Translations under genes and position numbers: made by a program
Assembly: GCA_964574145.1 (NCBI GenBank)
Contig: CAZNKJ010000005.1
Coordinates: 1 to 53,376, forward strand
DNA from: an uncultured Candidatus Saccharibacteria bacterium
GTDB lineage: Bacteria > Patescibacteriota > Minisyncoccia > Phycocordibacterales > CAZNKJ01
Length of the DNA stretch: 53,376 nucleotides
Direction of reading: 5' to 3'
The notes under the pieces: model-generated
Database searches by the model: none
The model's input: the letters and a program-made list of their open reading frames with translations, nothing else
What the model was told of the DNA's origin: nothing
Shown: positions 5,867 to 47,224 of the stretch, piece after piece
How the letters are laid out: each line of letters opens with the position of its first letter
How positions within the stretch are numbered: the first letter of the stretch is position 1

Positions 5867-5929
5867 TGACTTTGACAACTGAATATTGGTAATGACCTAA
5901 CCCTCTAGATTCCTAGAGATATGGTCGAC

Positions 5930-6066
5930 AATCGCACGACACAAGAGAACCCATCATATAGGGCGTGTCGTGCGTTACCAGGGGAAACCCTGGTAGAGGA
6001 AACCGTGAGGTTCCTTCCTATGTGGTGGGCTTTGTTGTATCTACCGCACTAAATCGCACGACACAT
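5930..6066 (+). promoter_or_regulatory. Structured leader upstream of the HNH gene with mutually exclusive 10-bp helices
   Basis: CGCACGACAC occurs at 5933-5942 and 6055-6064, with its complement GTGTCGTGCG at 5965-5974. The downstream alternative encloses two GNRA-capped hairpins: TACCAGGG-GAAA-CCCTGGTA (5976-5995) and AGGAA(A)CC-GTGA-GGTTCCT (5997-6015). It ends 2 nt before ATG 6067. Confidence 0.45.
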
Positions 6067-6492
6067 ATGAAATTTGAATATCCTGAAGACAGGGAGTTCT
6101 TTGTTAATTTACTTAACAAAGGTGACGACAAAACATTTGATGAAAAGTTTGGAGATTACTTTGACTTTAGACACCCAGCTATTAAACGTTGGGAGTTTAA
6201 TAAGGTGCGAAAGAAAATTCTAGAAGAATTAATTGAAAGGTACAAAGGTGAATGTCAGCTTCAATTACATGAAGATTGTAGTGTTGAGAAAGTGTGGCAT
6301 CCAGATCATATTCTCCCTCTTTCCACCAATGAACTTAATAAGAAATTGAGGAATATGAATGGATCTTCAGGCGAAAAAGTTCCTTCTCAAAGCTTTGGAT
6401 CAAATGATATTAAAAATCTTACTCTAGCTTGCAAGAGGTGTAACTATTATAAGAAGCACAGATTGATGTTGCCTAAGAAAATGAAGGTATAG
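6067..6492 (+). CDS. HNH endonuclease (small, stand-alone)
   Basis: HPDHILP...NDIKNLTLACKRCNYYKKH gives the HNH/Cys pattern. ATG 6067 is preferred; the 5' extension from GTG 5965 translates the structured, non-protein-like leader. Confidence 0.75.
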   Translation: MKFEYPEDREFFVNLLNKGDDKTFDEKFGDYFDFRHPAIKRWEFNKVRKKILEELIERYKGECQLQLHEDCSVEKVWHPDHILPLSTNELNKKLRNMNGSSGEKVPSQSFGSNDIKNLTLACKRCNYYKKHRLMLPKKMKV

Positions 6493-41490: not shown

Positions 41491-41526
41491 TAAACAATAC
41501 TTTACTTTGAATAAAGTTTTTAAAAA

Positions 41527-41552
41527 AGTGACTCTTTTGAGTCGCTTTTTTA
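41527..41552 (+). terminator. groEL terminator
   Basis: GTGACTC-TTTT-GAGTCGC followed by TTTTTT. Confidence 0.75.
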
Positions 41553-41579
41553 AAAGACGAAGTTGTATACAAATAGGTC

Positions 41580-41608
41580 TTGACAAAAAGATAATAATAT
41601 GTGATACT
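41580..41608 (+). promoter_or_regulatory. Near-consensus sigma-70-type promoter (extended -10)
   Basis: TTGACA-17 nt-GATACT, with TG at 41600-41601. Confidence 0.6.
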
Positions 41609-41634
41609 TCTAATCAGAAGGTAAGGTTTTTGTG

Positions 41635-41701
41635 GGCAGGCGTGAGCGTTGGTTGCCACCGGATGATAGCCTGCTGGGTTCAAATCCCAGGCTTGCCCCC
41701 A
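41635..41701 (+). ncRNA. tRNA-like minihelix RNA lacking an anticodon arm, with encoded CCA
   Basis: Acceptor GGCAGGC/GCTTGCC (one G-U). Canonical T arm CTGGG-TTCAAAT-CCCAG is directly stacked on the acceptor 3' strand. Discriminator C, then CCA (41699-41701). Only 32 nt sit between the acceptor and the T stem, with a GTTGGTT D-loop-like segment and no foldable anticodon stem. Confidence 0.45.
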
Positions 41702-41753
41702 TCCCCTTTTTAGGGCTTACAATTCTCGTGAATGCAGTAGTAGAAAATAGAGC

Positions 41754-41782
41754 TTGACAAGATAGATGAAATATGCTATTAT
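41754..41782 (+). promoter_or_regulatory. Consensus promoter (TTGACA-17-TATTAT with TG extension)
   Basis: Read directly. TG at 41774-41775. Confidence 0.7.
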
Positions 41783-41788
41783 ATATAG

Positions 41789-41957
41789 AGAGTAAGATAC
41801 AGTTACGAAAGTAAAGTACTTTAAAACAAACAAATATTTGATTCTTTGAGGAGAGAGTCTTATTACACAATCTAGAAGATTATGTGATAAGTTAAGAGCG
41901 ATTATGAGAACACTCCTTTTCCTTTGGAAAGAGTAGCGCTCTCATAATCGTTTTTTT
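41789..41957 (+). ncRNA. Unclassified ~170-nt small RNA bounded by promoter and intrinsic terminator
   Basis: Start inferred from the promoter. Internal 14-bp hairpin CTTATTACACAATC-TAGAA-GATTATGTGATAAG. Terminator CGATTATGAGA...TCTCATAATCG plus T7 (41899-41957). No plausible ORF. Confidence 0.55.
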
Positions 41958-41963
41958 GTCGGT

Positions 41964-42047
41964 AGAGTGATGGAGTGGATAGATAAGTTGATTCAGGTAT
42001 AAAGTATTAAAATTTAACCTTGTAATCCACATCTTCTCCACCACTCT
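41964..42047 (+). other. Long imperfect hairpin (12-bp basal helix with one A.C mismatch, plus 5 bp) with AT-rich 44-nt apical region
   Basis: AGAGTGATGGAG/CTCCACCACTCT and TGGAT/ATCCA. Confidence 0.55.
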
Positions 42048-42118
42048 CTCGAGGAAGAGAACATTGGGCATAATATCCAATGAAAAGTTCATTAGAAAAT
42101 GTGTCAACCGTTCTCATT

Positions 42119-42180
42119 ATGGAGATCGGCTGGAGAGAAAGAGACTAAACCAATCTTTCTTTCTCTCCAGAAATCTCCAT
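42119..42180 (+). other. 23-bp purine/pyrimidine-asymmetric hairpin
   Basis: ATGGAGAT/ATCTCCAT closes CTGGAGAGAAAGAGA/TTTCTTTCTCTCCAG with an 11-nt loop. Confidence 0.6.
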
Positions 42181-42639
42181 GCGAGGAGGAAAAAGAAGTG
42201 GTCAGGTAAAGCCAGTCAACGAGAGACCACTAATTGATCCGCCAGCGAGCAGGAAGTTGTTTGAAAATAGAATAGAGAAGTTAAAAGGATAATGCAGAAC
42301 AATTTTTGCTTAGGTAAAGACTGCAATGTTATTCCTCTTCTCCGGCGGTATGGTATGTAGTATATCTAATGCTGGAAAGAGGGTTTGCAAAGAGCAATCC
42401 TAACCCATATCTGCCGGGTTTGAGGCGGAAGGTCATGAAGGAGAAAATTATGGCAACTATTGGACGATTAAATGAAATTTTAGCCAATCGTGGCGCAAAC
42501 GCCGCTATTGCCTATGCCTTGGCGAGCATTGAGCTCGCTTGGGCGGCAGAAAAAATCCGCAACGGATCGTGGGATTCGTCGCAAAGGGAAATTCGCGTAC
42601 AAGGTATGTACGTGAGTTTTTCCCCGCCCGCGGTGCGGA

Positions 42640-42978
42640 AGGGTAAGACTGCACGAAAGCGCGAAGCGCTTCGTGCAGGAACCCGTGGGATTGCCCCCAC
42701 AAATGTGGGCAATCCCTGTGCAAAAGGGAGATCGGGTGGAAAGTCCGAGCTCCGGACAAATTCCGAGCGCACTGCAAAGAGTGCTCGCAAACAAGCTCAG
42801 CGCAAATAGCACTGGGCGCAGACTTCCATGCAGATTTTTTGATAACAGGAAATCAGAGCATGGTCTGGTTTCTAAAGAAAGGAGAGGGTCATGTATGTTG
42901 ATTCTCGCGGGTGTGCACATCGCACCCTAGCCGTGTATCTTGCGGCAGAACGCGGCTATAAGTAGTCGCTTGGTAAAA
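42640..42978 (+). ncRNA. rnpB: RNase P RNA (bacterial type, atypical; boundaries approximate)
   Basis: CR-I GGAAAGTCCGAGCTCC (42738-42753). CR-V CAGAACGCGGCTATAAG (42946-42962). P4 pairing AAG(U)CCG with CGGCT, including the bulged U. P3-like helix ACCCG...CGGGT (42681-42737) ends directly at CR-I. GCAAAC and GCAAATAGC elements are present. The region is GC-rich with all reading frames open. Confidence 0.72.
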
Positions 42979-43123
42979 AATTCCCAGTCTACCACTTGGT
43001 TAGATGTGGGGATGGTGACGTAGAAAAAAGTTTCAAGGTAGGTTCTTTTCAAAAACCTCCACATCGGCGGATGTAAAATGTAGGTTAAGGTTCGGAGGGG
43101 TACCTATTGGTTTAAAACTCCTC

Positions 43124-43175
43124 TCTTTCGCAGAGTGTGTACTCTGCCTGATGAGTCCAAAAGGACGAAAAAGAA
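43124..43175 (+). ncRNA. Type III hammerhead self-cleaving ribozyme motif
   Basis: TCTTTC^GCAGAGT-GTGT-ACTCTGC-CTGATGA-GTCC-AAAA-GGAC-GAAA-AAGA. All invariant core nucleotides are present. Stems I and II are capped and stem III is open. Predicted cleavage after C43129. Confidence 0.85.
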
Positions 43176-43332
43176 TGTTCTAGAAAATTCAACTATTCTC
43201 TGCAATGCGGGGTATCTTGAATAAGGTAAAACTTAGTATGCAAATCTTTGCCTTTCGGCAAAAACTCTCTCCTCGAGATGTTGTGTGTTGGGTTTTTACT
43301 ATAATTCTATTTGGATATCCCACATTGAAGAG

Positions 43333-43382
43333 AAACAAGAAAACACTCAGCGCCGAAAGGCGCTGGGTGTTTTCTTGTTTTT
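43333..43382 (+). terminator. 22-bp GNRA-capped terminator hairpin ending the ncRNA locus
   Basis: AAACAAGAAAACACTCAGCGCC-GAAA-GGCGCTGGGTGTTTTCTTGTTT, then TT. Confidence 0.8.
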
Positions 43383-43385
43383 AAT

Positions 43386-43416
43386 AAAAAACGGCCCGCA
43401 GGTTGTGCGAGCCGAG
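43386..43416 (-). terminator. Terminator of the minus-strand HD-domain gene
   Basis: On the minus strand: CGGCTCGCA-CAAC-CTGCGGGCCG followed by TTTTTT. Confidence 0.65.
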
Positions 43417-43422
43417 TTGTTT

Positions 43423-44082
43423 TTAAGTGGATTGTTTAATAGCCCACTTGAGATTGTTTCGAGCCTGTTCTTCAAGATGTTTGAAATGCTTGGTTTTGAA
43501 AATAGTGTCTCTTTCAAGCATTTTTCTGCAAAACATCGCGCGTCCAGAATTGAAATCATCTTCTGACACGCCAAGAGCTTCTTGACGAAGCTGTGTACCC
43601 ACTTTGACGAATAGGTCATGAGGGTCACCGAGGCCTGACAGATCTATGTCAAGCAAAATTGCTAGATCGTCTTTATAACCTGAATAATTATCAGGAATGA
43701 GATGGTCCTTGGTTGCACAAATACTCTCATAAGCTACCTGTACGACTTCTGCAGGTAGCCCAAGCAATTTCAGCTCATGTTCTGCAAGCTTTGCACTACA
43801 GAGCTCATTTGTTGGAGCCAACGGCACGTACACACTGTCATGATAGAGCCATGTCCAGTATATAACGAGAGGGTTATTGATATGCTCGAACACCGTAGCT
43901 ATTTTTCTGAAGCCATCTGCAATATGGGCTTCAGTGTGATAACTTCTCCAAACTTCTCTGTATCTTTCGAGAATCGGTTGAAGGTGGCACAGGTTTCCTG
44001 AGTACATGGATGACGATTTCTTCGAAAGCATGTGAAGGGTCATATATGCACAAAAGATGGTTGTTTCATCATCATGAGTCAT
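43423..44082 (-). CDS. HD-superfamily metal-dependent phosphohydrolase (COG4339-like)
   Basis: ERYREVWRSYHTEAHI...WLYHDSVY pattern. The true start may be an internal Met. Confidence 0.6.
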   Translation of the reverse strand: MTHDDETTIFCAYMTLHMLSKKSSSMYSGNLCHLQPILERYREVWRSYHTEAHIADGFRKIATVFEHINNPLVIYWTWLYHDSVYVPLAPTNELCSAKLAEHELKLLGLPAEVVQVAYESICATKDHLIPDNYSGYKDDLAILLDIDLSGLGDPHDLFVKVGTQLRQEALGVSEDDFNSGRAMFCRKMLERDTIFKTKHFKHLEEQARNNLKWAIKQST

Positions 44083-44165
44083 CTTACCCGTTCCTTATTT
44101 AATTGTGGTGAACTTCCGTTTCTAATTTTATAGATAGTTATATATTTATACAATATTGTTGTATA

Positions 44166-44948
44166 ATGACTATACAATTTATTATGAAACTTGCTAACAC
44201 CACTCTTGAAAAGATGGGACTTTCTGAAATAGAGTCAAAAATTTTTATTGCAATGCTTGAGGGTTATTTGCGGGTTAAAGATATCCAAAATATCACAAGT
44301 GTTAAACGTCCTTCTGTTTATTATGCTATTTCTAATCTGGAAAAAAGAGGTTTAGTGGGGCGTATTCAGGTAGGGGAGTATAATCAGTGGAAAGTAAGTC
44401 CACTTTCAAAGCTTTACCATATTCTTGATGAAAGGAAACAATCTTTAGAGGCACTTACTCATGATGTGGATGATTTTGTTGCTTCGGTTCCCATTCTTAA
44501 GAATACTTCTGAAACGAAAGTTACATATTATGAAGGAACATCTGGGATAGAATCAATAGTATTTAATAGTTTATATTGTAAAGATAAAGAAATATGGTCA
44601 ATTGCTCCAGATAAAAATTTCTTTTTTGAGAGAGGGGCAAAGTTTGCCACAAAGTATGTATCAGAGCGTAGGAAAAGAGGTATCAAAACTCGGAATCTTT
44701 GGGAGAATATTTTTGATCGTGAGGTGGTCAAAGTGCTCTATGAAGATGTGTCTGAAATCAGGATTATGCCGAAGAGTATGCATGGAAAATTTCAAACTAC
44801 TGTTTTTATATATGATGACAAGGTAATGTATATCGCTCCGCAGAAGAGTAATTATGCTGTTATTTTTCAATCAAAAGATCATTCGTCTTTTATGAGGGCT
44901 GTATATGAGGCAGTATGGAACGTCTCAAAAAAACGAGGCAGTTGTTGA
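44166..44948 (+). CDS. TrmB-family transcriptional regulator
   Basis: N-terminal winged HTH LEKMGLSEIESKIFIAMLE...VKRPSVYYAISNLEKRGLV and a C-terminal effector-type domain. Confidence 0.75.
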   Translation: MTIQFIMKLANTTLEKMGLSEIESKIFIAMLEGYLRVKDIQNITSVKRPSVYYAISNLEKRGLVGRIQVGEYNQWKVSPLSKLYHILDERKQSLEALTHDVDDFVASVPILKNTSETKVTYYEGTSGIESIVFNSLYCKDKEIWSIAPDKNFFFERGAKFATKYVSERRKRGIKTRNLWENIFDREVVKVLYEDVSEIRIMPKSMHGKFQTTVFIYDDKVMYIAPQKSNYAVIFQSKDHSSFMRAVYEAVWNVSKKRGSC

Positions 44949-45005
44949 TGTTTTTTTTGAGCATTGTATACTGAGGAAACTTGTAATATTAAACTAATCA
45001 AACTT

Positions 45006-46877: not shown

Positions 46878-46906
46878 GGAGAAGTAGCTGAGTGGTTAAA
46901 AGCGAG
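46878..46906 (+). pseudogene. Truncated tRNA-Ser-like 5' fragment (acceptor 5' strand plus D arm)
   Basis: GGAGAAGTAGCTGAGTGGTTAAAAGCG compared with GGAGAGGTGGCTGAGTGGTTTAAGGCG of the intact gene 51 nt downstream. No anticodon or T arm follows. Confidence 0.45.
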
Positions 46907-46928
46907 AGATTGTTTTCCATCGCAAAGC

Positions 46929-47013
46929 GGAGAGGTGGCTGAGTGGTTTAAGGCGCTCGCTTGGAAAGCGAGTGTGCCGTAAGGTACCGCAGGTTCAAAT
47001 CCTGTCCTCTCCG
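46929..47013 (+). tRNA. tRNA-Ser (anticodon GGA), type II with long variable arm
   Basis: Acceptor GGAGAGG/CCTCTCC, anticodon stem CTCGC/GCGAG with loop TTGGAAA (GGA at 46963-46965), variable arm TGTGCCGTAAGGTACCGC, T arm GCAGG-TTCAAAT-CCTGT, discriminator G. Confidence 0.9.
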
Positions 47014-47224
47014 CTTTGCGATGGAGAAAGCGAGTGTAATGAAACTTCCGCACATGACTAGCGAAGAAAGATAACATATTGCAGGCGCAGGACGATTTGT
47101 TAAGTAAGAGTGAGTTCCAAGCTTTAATATTCAGACATTTTTTTGAGATTTGTTATTATCAGAAAGACTTGATATAAGAAAAGTGTAAAAAGATAAAATC
47201 TATTATTTTATAAAATAAAAAAAT

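What the first reader, a model, noticed from the sequence alone, without database searches (positions are those of the whole stretch)
43124..43175. Complete type III hammerhead ribozyme motif about 150 nt downstream of the RNase P RNA gene
Read directly on the + strand: 5'-TCTTTC^GCAGAGT-GTGT-ACTCTGC-CTGATGA-GTCC-AAAA-GGAC-GAAA-AAGA-3'.

Every invariant hammerhead position is present. C3-A9 (CUGAUGA) lies at 43148-43154 and G12-A13-A14 at 43167-43169. A15.1:U16.1 pairs 43170 with 43128, and G10.1:C11.1 pairs 43155 with 43166. The cleavage triplet is UUC, with scission predicted after C43129.

Stem I (7 bp, GUGU loop) and stem II (4 bp, AAAA loop) are capped. Stem III (UCUUU/AAAGA, 5 bp) is open, which gives type III topology.

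The motif is in protein-free DNA on the same strand as rnpB. It sits about 200 nt before a 22-bp terminator, so it should cut inside a longer non-coding transcript.

A second copy of the stem I 3' strand (CTCTGC, 43198-43203) could compete for GCAGAG (43130-43135). That would give an off-state.

A self-cleaving ribozyme embedded in a locus with RNase P RNA and a tRNA-like RNA is not a standard arrangement. It may define a processing module or the end of a new RNA.
Basis: partly seen in the sequence, partly recalled or inferred. Interest (0 to 1): 0.85.

Follow-up and report, generated by a model that had tools for sequence, protein, structure and literature searches.

The report
Hammerhead ribozyme leading a small RNA
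The motif is a genuine self-cutting hammerhead RNA from a compact family that turns out to be very common in the tiny "Patescibacteria", and here it sits at the front of a conserved, previously undescribed hairpin-shaped small RNA rather than working with RNase P.

Summary
Window 43124-43174 (+) is a complete type III hammerhead, predicted to cut between C43129 and G43130.

It is not a chance motif:
- A model built only from 28 phage hammerheads hits it end to end (67.6 bits, the only hit in the window).
- A pattern that fixes only the loops and core found at least 134 copies in 120 genome loci, 96 of them named as Patescibacteria.
- 98% of stem positions pair across 123 aligned copies (122 plus the window's), and 13 of 16 pairs show double (compensatory) changes.

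Rfam misses this subfamily (23 bits against a cut-off of 48.5).

The "RNase P RNA" context is not supported. No Rfam RNase P model matches, although 42590-43000 is a strongly structured RNA of unknown type.

Most family members lie between same-strand genes. This copy does not. It is followed by a 139-nt extended hairpin that displays AAAAACUCUCUCCUC, then by a terminator. Nine other genomes have the same arrangement.

Best reading: the ribozyme makes the 5' end of a conserved small RNA.

It is a new member of a known kind, and it points to a possible new RNA class.

The parts
43095..43123 (+). Upstream hairpin that abuts stem III. Stem is GAGGGG 43095-43100 with CUCCUC 43118-43123. The 17-nt loop is UACCUAUUGGUUUAAAA.
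   Evidence: Read. 104 of 159 family members have a hairpin ending 0-2 nt before stem III. L244 has the same loop sequence with a covarying stem, GAGAAGU/ACUUCUC.
43124..43174 (+). Type III hammerhead ribozyme. Stem III 43124-28/43170-74; C17 43129; stem-loop I 43130-47; CUGAUGA 43148-54; stem-loop II 43155-66; GAA 43167-69.
   Evidence: Model R1 built from phage copies scores 67.6 bits, E=2.6e-19, positions 1-53/53. Family covariation.
43129..43130 (+). Predicted self-cleavage site, C43129 / G43130. The upstream product would end in a 2',3'-cyclic phosphate and the downstream product would start with a 5'-OH.
   Evidence: Position follows from hammerhead numbering (established chemistry). The UUC triplet is used by 28 of 134 family copies. 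Cleavage itself was not tested.
43176..43183 (+). 3' flank UGUUCUAG, the window's version of a recurrent (A)UGUUCUUU flank.
   Evidence: TGTTCT/GTTCTT lies within 16 nt after the ribozyme in 23 of 133 copies, against 0 of 133 in the 30 nt before it.
43196..43334 (+). 139-nt extended (rod-like) hairpin directly after the ribozyme.
   Evidence: 147-nt stretch 43190-43336: MFE -49.3 kcal/mol, z=-6.5 on the + strand, against -41.1 kcal/mol, z=-5.4 on the - strand. The 139-nt hairpin itself: -48.6 kcal/mol, z=-7.1, 51 pairs, 8 of them G-U. Nine other loci have the same arrangement.
43260..43274 (+). Conserved, mostly single-stranded apical motif AAAAACUCUCUCCUC. Family consensus is AAAAYCUCUCUCCUCUAA.
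   Evidence: CTCTCTCC lies within 160 nt downstream of 9 of 158 other hammerheads, against 0 of 152 upstream controls. Background is 0.0054 per 160 nt. Motif alignment.
43335..43385 (+). Intrinsic terminator for the + strand transcript: 20-bp stem, GAAA loop, then a T run.
   Evidence: Terminators also follow the long hairpin in L147, L156 and L157.
42590..43000 (+). It is context only and is not shown to belong to the ribozyme unit.
   Evidence: MFE -177 kcal/mol, z=-8.15. GC is 0.57 against 0.37 for the window. No Rfam RNase P hit. Its CR-I-like 20-mer is shared with three genuine RNase P RNAs.

Best explanation
Window 43124-43174 (+) is a functional, constitutively self-cleaving type III hammerhead ribozyme. 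It belongs to a compact 53-nt subfamily: a 7-bp stem I capped by (U)GUGU(R), a 4-bp stem II capped by NAAA, and an open 4-7-bp stem III. The subfamily is dispersed through Patescibacteria genomes and also occurs in phage contigs.

How it works here. The ribozyme is transcribed as part of a + strand non-coding transcript. Once stems I and II have formed and their loops dock, it cuts between C43129 and G43130.
- The upstream fragment keeps only UCUUUC>p, directly after a protective hairpin (43095-43123). The weak, A-U-rich 5-bp stem III lets this fragment leave.
- The downstream product is about 255 nt and starts with a 5'-OH. It consists of the ribozyme body, a 139-nt rod-like hairpin that displays AAAAACUCUCUCCUC, and an intrinsic terminator.

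So in this locus the ribozyme makes, and insulates, the 5' end of a conserved small RNA. It separates that RNA from whatever is transcribed upstream.

Shown: the motif, its family membership, the covariation, the conserved downstream hairpin and motif in nine other genomes, and the terminator.

Inferred: transcription, cleavage in vivo, and the role of the downstream RNA. That role might be pairing of its pyrimidine-rich loop with purine-rich, Shine-Dalgarno-like sequences, or binding of a protein.
For: Motif and fold.

Independent model. R1 was built from 28 phage hammerheads without the window. It hits 43123-43175 at 67.6 bits over the full length, and this is the only hit in the window.

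Genome scan. The pattern fixed only the loops, the core and the G10.1/C11.1 pair. It gave 134 matches in 120 loci. All 134 have a 4-bp stem II, 129 have a 7-bp stem I, and 133 have a stem III of at least 3 bp.

Covariation on the ungapped alignment A6 (123 sequences). 98.0% of cells are paired, against 31-46% when partners are slid. 13 of 16 pairs show double changes, in 723 cells. No shuffle of 500 reached the observed values.

The closest copy is L244. It differs by two compensatory pairs in stem I and has a covarying upstream hairpin.

Model R1 finds 177 copies in the 120 loci.

Downstream RNA. Ten loci, including the window, have a 104-190-nt hairpin starting 1-26 nt after the ribozyme. 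Their z-scores run from -5.1 to -11.2, each has 6-13 G-U pairs, and each carries the CUCUCUCC motif just past the apex. The stems share no sequence similarity. A terminator follows in the window, L147, L156 and L157.
Against: - There are no expression or cleavage data.
- No orthologous locus with variation is available. L002 is identical. The closest relatives (GroEL 80-85% identical) have GroEL directly followed by LemA, or by one unrelated gene in L006, without this 3.5-kb insert.
- No promoter is predicted between 41782 and the ribozyme, so the transcript's origin is unknown.
- Rfam Hammerhead_3 gives only 23 bits against a cut-off of 48.5.
- R1's score is inflated, because the pattern used to collect its seeds fixed the window's own core and stem II. 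That accounts for roughly half of the bits.
- In 7 of the 9 sister loci a same-strand ORF starts about 260-350 nt downstream. The hairpin could therefore be a leader or 3' element of an mRNA rather than a free small RNA.
- The covariation of the long hairpin was judged from separate folds, not from a structural alignment.
Confidence: 0.7

Rival explanations
1. First reader's reading. The hammerhead is part of a dedicated processing module with an RNase P RNA gene and a tRNA-like RNA, for example trimming the 3' end of the RNase P RNA precursor.
For: All elements are on the same strand within about 1.6 kb of non-coding DNA. No + strand terminator is predicted between them. The upstream RNA is strongly structured. 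It carries a CR-I-like 20-mer that also occurs in three genuine RNase P RNAs.
Against: No Rfam RNase P model matches at E<=10 in searches of 1201, 1651 or 431 nt. Alignment with genuine class A RNAs shows that the P12-P14-like block is missing. Only the ribozyme is shared with the other hammerhead loci. None of the nine sister loci has a CR-I string. The family is mostly intercistronic. The ribozyme lies about 130 nt beyond the structured RNA, with its own hairpin in between.
Confidence: 0.08
2. Generic intercistronic cutter. As for most family members, it simply splits a polycistronic mRNA into separate messages. The flanking hairpins stabilise the new ends, and the downstream hairpin has no function of its own.
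For: 132 of 161 copies have a same-strand ORF starting within 250 nt downstream, and 135 of 161 have one ending within 250 nt upstream. Perreault et al. 2011 proposed this role for prophage hammerheads. 7 of the 9 sister loci have a same-strand ORF about 260-350 nt downstream.
Against: In the window there is no credible + strand ORF on either side. The 59-aa ORF 43205-43384 has no ribosome-binding site and runs through the terminator. The conserved 15-18-nt motif inside long hairpins of unrelated sequence argues for a function of that RNA itself.
Confidence: 0.12
3. Selfish or mobile repeat. The ribozyme with its hairpins is a small dispersed element, MITE-like or phage-derived, that arrived with the lineage-specific 3.5-kb insert and has no role for the host.
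For: Close relatives lack the 41491-44964 insert. The insert carries an orphan 219-aa gene with no homologues. Copies are dispersed next to unrelated genes: 267 flanking proteins fall into 229 clusters. Some loci hold near-identical local duplicates or arrays. The same ribozyme type occurs in phage contigs.
Against: No terminal repeats or target duplications were found around it. Copies differ by compensatory changes rather than being near-identical, which indicates long-term selection on the RNA fold. The composite with the CUCUCUCC hairpin was not found in viral contigs: 0 of 41 motif matches have a hammerhead. Many copies lie next to housekeeping genes.
Confidence: 0.08
4. Chance or decayed motif with no activity, or a switchable ribozyme held in an off-state by the second CTCTGC copy (43198-43203).
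For: Rfam's score is below its threshold. The CTCTGC copy exists.
Against: The expected number of chance motifs is about 4e-4 per window. The core is intact and the stems are all Watson-Crick. It matches the family model. CTCTGC is paired within the long hairpin. The family shows no enrichment of such copies (5/150 against 2/150).
Confidence: 0.02

Closest known systems
Hammerhead ribozyme, type III (Rfam RF00008, clan CL00010)
   Same: Identical catalytic core (C3-A9 CUGAUGA, G12-A14 GAA, A15.1-U16.1, C17, G10.1-C11.1). Three-way junction with stems I and II capped and stem III open. The stem II sequence GUCC/GGAC equals that of the classical sTRSV-derived ribozyme (my own knowledge).
   Different: It scores only 23 bits against Rfam's cut-off of 48.5. 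None of the dozens of family copies in 18 further loci reaches the cut-off either. It has its own conserved loops, (U)GUGU(R) and NAAA. It is encoded in the DNA of bacteria and phages, not in a viroid or satellite RNA.
Bacterial and prophage hammerheads described by Perreault et al. 2011 (PMC3088659)
   Same: Intergenic position. Several copies flank single genes or short gene blocks whose identities are not constant. The proposed role is processing of long transcripts. The family found here behaves the same way.
   Different: That paper stresses proximity to integrases and prophages. Here most copies are in Patescibacteria chromosomes next to diverse genes, housekeeping genes included. The window copy is flanked by non-coding RNA, not by genes. 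No paper in the searchable library links hammerheads to Patescibacteria, CPR, Saccharibacteria or Parcubacteria as a topic; the single co-occurrence found is an unrelated veterinary paper.
Synthetic ribozyme insulators such as RiboJ, a hammerhead plus hairpin placed at the 5' end of a transcript (my own knowledge; not tested here)
   Same: A hammerhead that stays attached to the downstream RNA, removes all upstream sequence and leaves a defined, structured 5'-OH end.
   Different: RiboJ is engineered. This would be a natural counterpart that leads a non-coding hairpin RNA. The analogy concerns mechanism only.
Rod-like RNAs with type III hammerheads (viroids of the Avsunviroidae, retrozyme circular RNAs, Obelisks; my own knowledge)
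   Same: A type III hammerhead next to a long rod-like hairpin.
   Different: Those are circular, replicate as RNA or are flanked by two ribozymes. Here there is a single ribozyme, encoded in DNA, with a terminator at the 3' end. Nothing suggests circularisation in the window.

Membership tests
Hammerhead ribozyme (any type) | Conserved core: C3 U4 G5 A6 N7 G8 A9, G12 A13 A14, A15.1-U16.1 pair, H17 (not G) | tested here: met
   CUGAUGA 43148-54, GAA 43167-69, A43170-U43128, C43129.
Hammerhead ribozyme (any type) | Three helices radiating from the core, supported by covariation among homologues | tested here: met
   Stems of 7, 4 and 5 bp, all Watson-Crick. On 123 sequences, 98% of cells are paired and 13 of 16 pairs show double changes; slid controls give 31-46%. 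The stems were not fixed by the search pattern.
Hammerhead ribozyme (any type) | Mg2+-dependent self-cleavage 3' of position 17, giving 2',3'-cyclic phosphate and 5'-OH ends | not testable with these tools
   Needs in vitro transcription or end-specific RNA-seq.
Hammerhead ribozyme (any type) | Tertiary contact between stems I and II (loop-loop) needed for fast cleavage at physiological Mg2+ | tested here: inconclusive
   Loop 1 UG(U/A)GU(R) and loop 2 NAAA recur in most type III copies collected with a pattern that did not fix the loops. This is consistent with a contact, but no structure or mutant was tested.
Type III topology | Stems I and II closed by loops; 5' and 3' ends in stem III | tested here: met
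   Loops GUGU and AAAA; stem III is open.
Rfam Hammerhead_3 (RF00008), operational membership | Score at or above the gathering cut-off of 48.5 bits | tested here: not met
   23 bits, model positions 9-47 of 54. The same failure holds for other family copies. It reflects the model's seed, not the motif.
Compact Patescibacteria/phage type III subfamily (defined here) | 53-nt unit; 7-bp stem I with a (U)GUGU(R) cap; 4-bp stem II with an NAAA cap; hairpin abutting stem III upstream | tested here: met
   R1 scores 67.6 bits over the full length. The window aligns without gaps in A6. The upstream hairpin is at 43095-43123, and 104 of 159 copies have one.
Bacterial RNase P RNA (claimed for the upstream neighbour) | Match to RNaseP_bact_a/b or another Rfam RNase P model; conserved regions CR-I to CR-V with a P4 helix | tested here: not met
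   No hit at E<=10 in three searches. Genuine RNAs that share the same 20-mer score 235-335 bits. Only CR-I-like and CR-V-like strings are present.
Hammerhead-led long-hairpin RNA with a CUCUCUCCUC loop (candidate class, defined here) | A type III hammerhead, then within 26 nt or less a 100-190-nt extended hairpin with AAAAYCUCUCUCCUC on the 3' side of its apex | tested here: met
   Window 43196-43334 with the motif at 43260-43274. Nine further loci share the arrangement. No formal covariation test on a structural alignment was done.

The most novel reading that the evidence does not exclude
The hammerhead is the 5' processing module of a previously undescribed class of small RNA in Patescibacteria. 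The class consists of ribozyme, then a rod-like hairpin that presents a single-stranded AAAAYCUCUCUCCUCUAA motif, then often a terminator.

More broadly, this compact type III hammerhead is a general and heavily used RNA-processing device in these reduced genomes. It occurs between genes and in arrays of up to about ten copies that cut out about 80-250-nt non-coding units (L158). Standard Rfam annotation misses it.
Probability: 0.5. Interest if true: 0.72.

Novelty: new member of a known kind. Interest (0 to 1): 0.55.

Why it matters
Hammerheads are textbook ribozymes, yet their roles in bacteria are still largely unknown.

This copy gives a concrete, testable case. A ribozyme appears to create the 5' end of a conserved non-coding RNA in an uncultivated, genome-reduced lineage.

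The family behind it has at least 177 copies in 120 loci, 80% of them named as Patescibacteria. It falls below Rfam's threshold, so it is absent from routine annotation. Correcting that would change how intergenic regions and operon structure are read in a large fraction of bacterial diversity. The literature I could search does not mention it.

The CUCUCUCCUC-loop hairpin RNA and the ribozyme arrays are new candidates for experimental work.

Tried and rejected
1. Synteny through the adjacent 219-aa gene. It has no homologues. The only other contigs that carry it are the same strain and identical over the ribozyme.
2. Synteny through GroEL. The closest relatives (80-85% identity) have GroES-GroEL followed by LemA, directly or after one unrelated gene (L006), and in L003, L004 and L006 by HtpX. 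They have no insert and no hammerhead. Orthologous conservation therefore could not be tested.
3. Metagenome scan with the CR-I-like 20-mer. It returned the same strain, three genuine RNase P RNAs from unrelated organisms and two chance hits in GC-rich coding DNA. None has a hammerhead.
4. Viral scan for AAAYCTCTCTCCTCTA. It gave 41 matches, a number I judge consistent with chance. None has a hammerhead within 300 nt upstream.
5. The 'off-state' idea was rejected.
6. A complement of the loop motif, GGAGAGAG, lies upstream on the same strand at 41850. It is seen in 4 of 10 loci, against about 1.6 expected, which is not significant.
7. My recollection that the Drum RNA motif is associated with hammerheads was not borne out by the main text of the paper that describes it. 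I dropped it.
8. A protein-homology test of the ORF that overlaps the structured RNA failed because of a wrong frame. I did not repeat it, because the fold z-score of -8 and the GC peak already argue for RNA.
9. The flanking genes of family members share no family. There is no conserved protein partner.

Full report
**1. The observation**

All 16 stem pairs are Watson-Crick. The core is canonical: C3-A9, G12-A14, A15.1-U16.1, C17 and G10.1-C11.1.

RNAfold gives the three-way junction as the minimum-energy fold. A descriptor scan of both strands finds no second motif in the 53 kb.

I estimated chance with 400 Markov-1 simulated windows.
- Stems of at least 4/3/3 bp: 0.09 motifs per window.
- Stems of at least 5/4/4 bp: 0.0075 per window.
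- Stems of at least 7/4/5 bp: none in 400.
- Extrapolated expectation: about 4e-4 per window with G-U pairs allowed.

That is rare, but not vanishingly so for a scan of many windows. Comparative evidence was therefore needed.

Rfam does not report the motif at its gathering thresholds. With relaxed thresholds, Hammerhead_3 gives a local 23-bit match against a cut-off of 48.5.

**2. The organism and the locus**

The window comes from a Patescibacteria (Parcubacteria-type) genome. It has 37% GC. Its GroEL is 72-74% identical to Kaiserbacteria proteins, and the closest metagenomic GroELs are 78-85% identical.

In the relatives whose contigs reach past GroEL, the order is GroES-GroEL followed by LemA, directly or (in L006) after one unrelated gene, and in three of them by HtpX. 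GroEL and LemA lie 110-133 nt apart in three of them. In the window, 3.5 kb (41491-44964) lies between GroEL and LemA. This insert holds:
- about 1.9 kb of non-coding DNA with two strong promoter-like sites (41580 and 41754);
- a tRNA-like element;
- a GC-rich structured RNA;
- the hammerhead;
- a terminator;
- a convergent orphan gene of 219 aa with no homologues;
- a TrmB-family regulator.

The only other contigs that carry this stretch are identical to it. Conservation at an orthologous position could not be tested.

**3. Family membership**

A scan of viral contigs for CUGAUGAGUCC-N3-8-GGACGAAA gave at least 120 loci. Of 126 matches, 89 fold as type I hammerheads and 31 as type III.

Most of the type III copies are 53-nt units with the window's architecture:
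- a 7-bp stem I (the innermost pair U-A or U-G) capped by GUGU or GAGU;
- a 4-bp stem II with an NAAA loop.

An alignment of 28 of these shows strong covariation. A covariance model built from them, without the window, hits the window at 43123-43175. The score is 67.6 bits, E=2.6e-19, over the full model length, and it is the only hit.

One caveat applies. The collecting pattern fixed the window's own core and stem II, so roughly half of that score comes by construction. The spacing, the loops and stems I and III are independent.

A second scan, of one genome per species, used TGWGT-N7-CTGATGAG-N4-AAA-N3-CGAAA. This fixes only the loops, the core and the G10.1/C11.1 pair.
- By record title, 96 loci are Patescibacteria lineages: Saccharibacteria, Parcubacteria/Paceibacterota, Kaiser-, Nomura-, Taylor-, Vogel-, Colwell-, Uhr-, Ames-, Woese-, Staskawicz-, Lipton-, Gracilibacteria and Minisyncoccia.
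- 15 loci carry other names and 9 are unspecified.

Of the 134 matches, all 134 have a 4-bp stem II, 129 have a 7-bp stem I, and 133 have a stem III of at least 3 bp. None of these stems was specified in the pattern. The cleavage triplet UUC of the window is as common (28) as GUC (28) and CUC (30).

On the ungapped alignment of 123 distinct sequences, including the window:
- 98.0% of pair cells are standard pairs;
- 13 of 16 pairs show changes on both sides, in 723 cells;
- no shuffle of 500 reaches the observed values;
- sliding the partners by 1-3 columns drops pairing to 31-46%.

The closest copy is L244. It is 88% identical over 73 nt and differs in stem I by two compensatory pairs (C-G to U-A, and A-U to G-C).

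This settles that the window element is a genuine hammerhead.

**4. What the family does elsewhere**

Model R1 finds 177 copies in the 120 genome loci. My descriptor finds 161 type III copies. Of these, 132 have a same-strand ORF starting within 250 nt downstream, and 135 have one ending within 250 nt upstream. The usual position is therefore intercistronic.

The flanking proteins have nothing in common: 267 proteins fall into 229 clusters. Pfam hits range from NUDIX hydrolases and glycosyltransferases to ribosomal proteins S2, S6 and S12, CysRS and peptidyl-tRNA hydrolase. Only a few hits are phage-like.

A hairpin ends 0-2 nt before stem III in 104 of 159 copies.

Some loci hold same-strand arrays:
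- about ten copies in L158;
- six in L132;
- five in L199.

In L158 the units of about 80-250 nt between ribozymes are non-coding and contain repeated hairpins.

This matches the behaviour reported for prophage hammerheads by Perreault et al. 2011. The setting differs, however: it is chromosomal and strongly biased to Patescibacteria. None of the copies in 18 loci reaches an Rfam threshold. No paper in the searchable library treats hammerheads together with Patescibacteria, CPR, Saccharibacteria or Parcubacteria; the one co-occurrence is an unrelated veterinary paper.

**5. What is special about the window copy**

It has no credible + strand ORF on either side.

Upstream hairpin:
- It lies directly before the ribozyme, at 43095-43123.
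- Its 17-nt loop, UACCUAUUGGUUUAAAA, is nearly the same in L244, while the stem covaries.

Long downstream hairpin:
- It spans 139 nt, 43196-43334.
- MFE -49.3 kcal/mol and z=-6.5 on the + strand (147-nt stretch 43190-43336), against -41.1 and z=-5.4 on the - strand.
- 8 of its 51 pairs are G-U.

Terminator:
- A 20-bp terminator follows at 43335-43378, then a T run.

Near its apex the long hairpin shows AAAAACUCUCUCCUC (43260-43274) after a small side hairpin.

The 8-mer CTCTCTCC lies within 160 nt downstream of 9 of the 158 other hammerheads. It occurs in 0 of 152 upstream controls, and its background is 0.0054 per 160 nt. It is the only sequence-specific 8-mer enriched there apart from Shine-Dalgarno-like words and a UGUUCUUU flank.

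In all nine loci (L133, L139, L147, L156, L157, L179, L217, L223, L244):
- the motif reads AAAAYCUCUCUCCUCUAA or a close variant;
- it sits just past the apex of a 104-190-nt hairpin that starts 1-26 nt after the ribozyme;
- the hairpins have z-scores of -5.1 to -11.2 and 6-13 G-U pairs each;
- their stems share no detectable sequence similarity.

Terminators follow in L147, L156 and L157. In 7 of the 9 loci a same-strand ORF begins about 260-350 nt after the ribozyme.

The motif was not linked to hammerheads in viral contigs: 0 of 41 matches.

The window copy thus belongs to a recurrent composite: hairpin, hammerhead, rod-like RNA with a pyrimidine-rich loop, and often a terminator.

**6. How it most likely works**

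Cleavage at C43129/G43130 would leave the upstream RNA ending in ...hairpin-UCUUUC>p. It would release an RNA of about 255 nt with a 5'-OH that carries the ribozyme body, the rod and the terminator.

The short, A-U-rich stem III favours product release.

I infer that the ribozyme defines and insulates the 5' end of this small RNA. The exposed CUCUCUCCUC could pair with purine-rich, Shine-Dalgarno-like sequences, or it could bind a protein. That last step is speculation.

**7. The RNase P claim**

The stretch 42590-43000 is certainly a structured RNA. It has z=-8.15 and GC up to 0.57 in a genome of 0.37.

It contains GGUGGAAAGUCCGAGCUCCGGAC. Its 20-nt core occurs in three genuine class A RNase P RNAs from metagenomes, which score 235-335 bits. 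It also contains a CR-V-like GCAGAACGCGGCUAUAAG.

Against the claim:
- No Rfam RNase P model matches at E<=10, even in a 431-nt search.
- The alignment with genuine RNAs lacks the P12-P14-like block.

I treat it as an unclassified structured RNA with RNase P-like strings. Nothing links it to the hammerhead family.

The proposed CTCTGC off-state is not supported.

**8. Verdict**

The element is a real type III hammerhead, a new member of a known kind.

The added value is twofold:
- a large subfamily, rich in Patescibacteria, that Rfam misses;
- a candidate new small-RNA class led by this ribozyme.

All functional steps remain inferred until cleavage and transcript ends are measured.

Noticed in passing
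window 42590-43000 (+): GC-rich (up to 0.57), very stably folded RNA of about 400 nt (MFE -177 kcal/mol, z=-8.15). It has RNase P CR-I-like and CR-V-like strings, but no Rfam family matches it, including all RNase P models. It could be a strongly reduced RNase P RNA or an unknown large RNA. Gene callers call a 146-aa ORF across it.
   Followed up: partly
window 41580-41705 (+): A strong promoter-like site (TTGACA-17-GATACT with TG) is followed by a tRNA-like element (41635-41697). The element has an acceptor stem and a GGUUCAAAUCC T-arm. ARAGORN does not call it. It gets only weak Rfam hits: mascRNA 23.6 bits and tRNA-Sec 17.5 bits.
   Followed up: partly
window 41754-41962 (+): A second near-consensus promoter (TTGACA-17-TATTAT with TG), then about 170 nt ending in a long hairpin (41894-41955) plus a T run. 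This is a candidate small RNA. It contains GAGGAGAGAGUCUU (41848-41861), which is complementary to the CUCUCUCCUC loop at 43261-43274 in 13 of 14 positions. That may be chance.
   Followed up: partly
window 41491-44964: The whole 3.5-kb block between groEL and lemA is absent from the closest relatives, where GroEL is followed by LemA directly or after one unrelated gene (L003, L004, L006, L008). It includes an orphan 219-aa gene (43423-44082, - strand) with no homologues in 5.8 billion proteins, and a TrmB-family regulator.
   Followed up: partly
L158 2475-3826 and 5888-6529 (+): A Parcubacteria contig with about ten same-strand hammerheads, 135-300 nt apart. The non-coding units between them repeat three hairpins (GGUCGGGG...CCCCGAC, CUUAAGU...ACUUAAGG, CAGUGCUUUCGAAAGAGAGUGCUG). 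The arrays flank a 592-aa helicase-like ORF. Smaller arrays occur in L132, L164, L175, L180, L182 and L199.
   Followed up: partly
Family-wide; window 43176-43183: 23 of 133 hammerheads are followed within 16 nt by (A)UGUUCUUU, against 0 of 133 in the 30 nt before them. The window has UGUUCUAG. A different subset has UCUGCUUGUC upstream (13 loci against 0). The meaning is unknown.
   Followed up: no
window 46878-47028 (+): tRNA-Ser(GGA) at 46929-47014 is embedded in a 23-nt inverted repeat (46913-46935 / 47006-47028) that extends the acceptor stem by about 16 bp. A partial copy of its first 27 nt (85% identical) lies 51 nt upstream, at 46878-46904.
   Followed up: no
window 5894-6014 (+): LOOT RNA (Rfam RF03000): 69.9 bits against a cut-off of 46.4. 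It partly overlaps the start of an ORF listed at 5965-6492.
   Followed up: no
L177 2688-3452 (-): In a Candidatus Amesbacteria contig, a hammerhead of this family lies about 105 nt upstream of a cluster of three tRNA genes on the same strand. This is another case where it precedes non-coding RNA genes.
   Followed up: no
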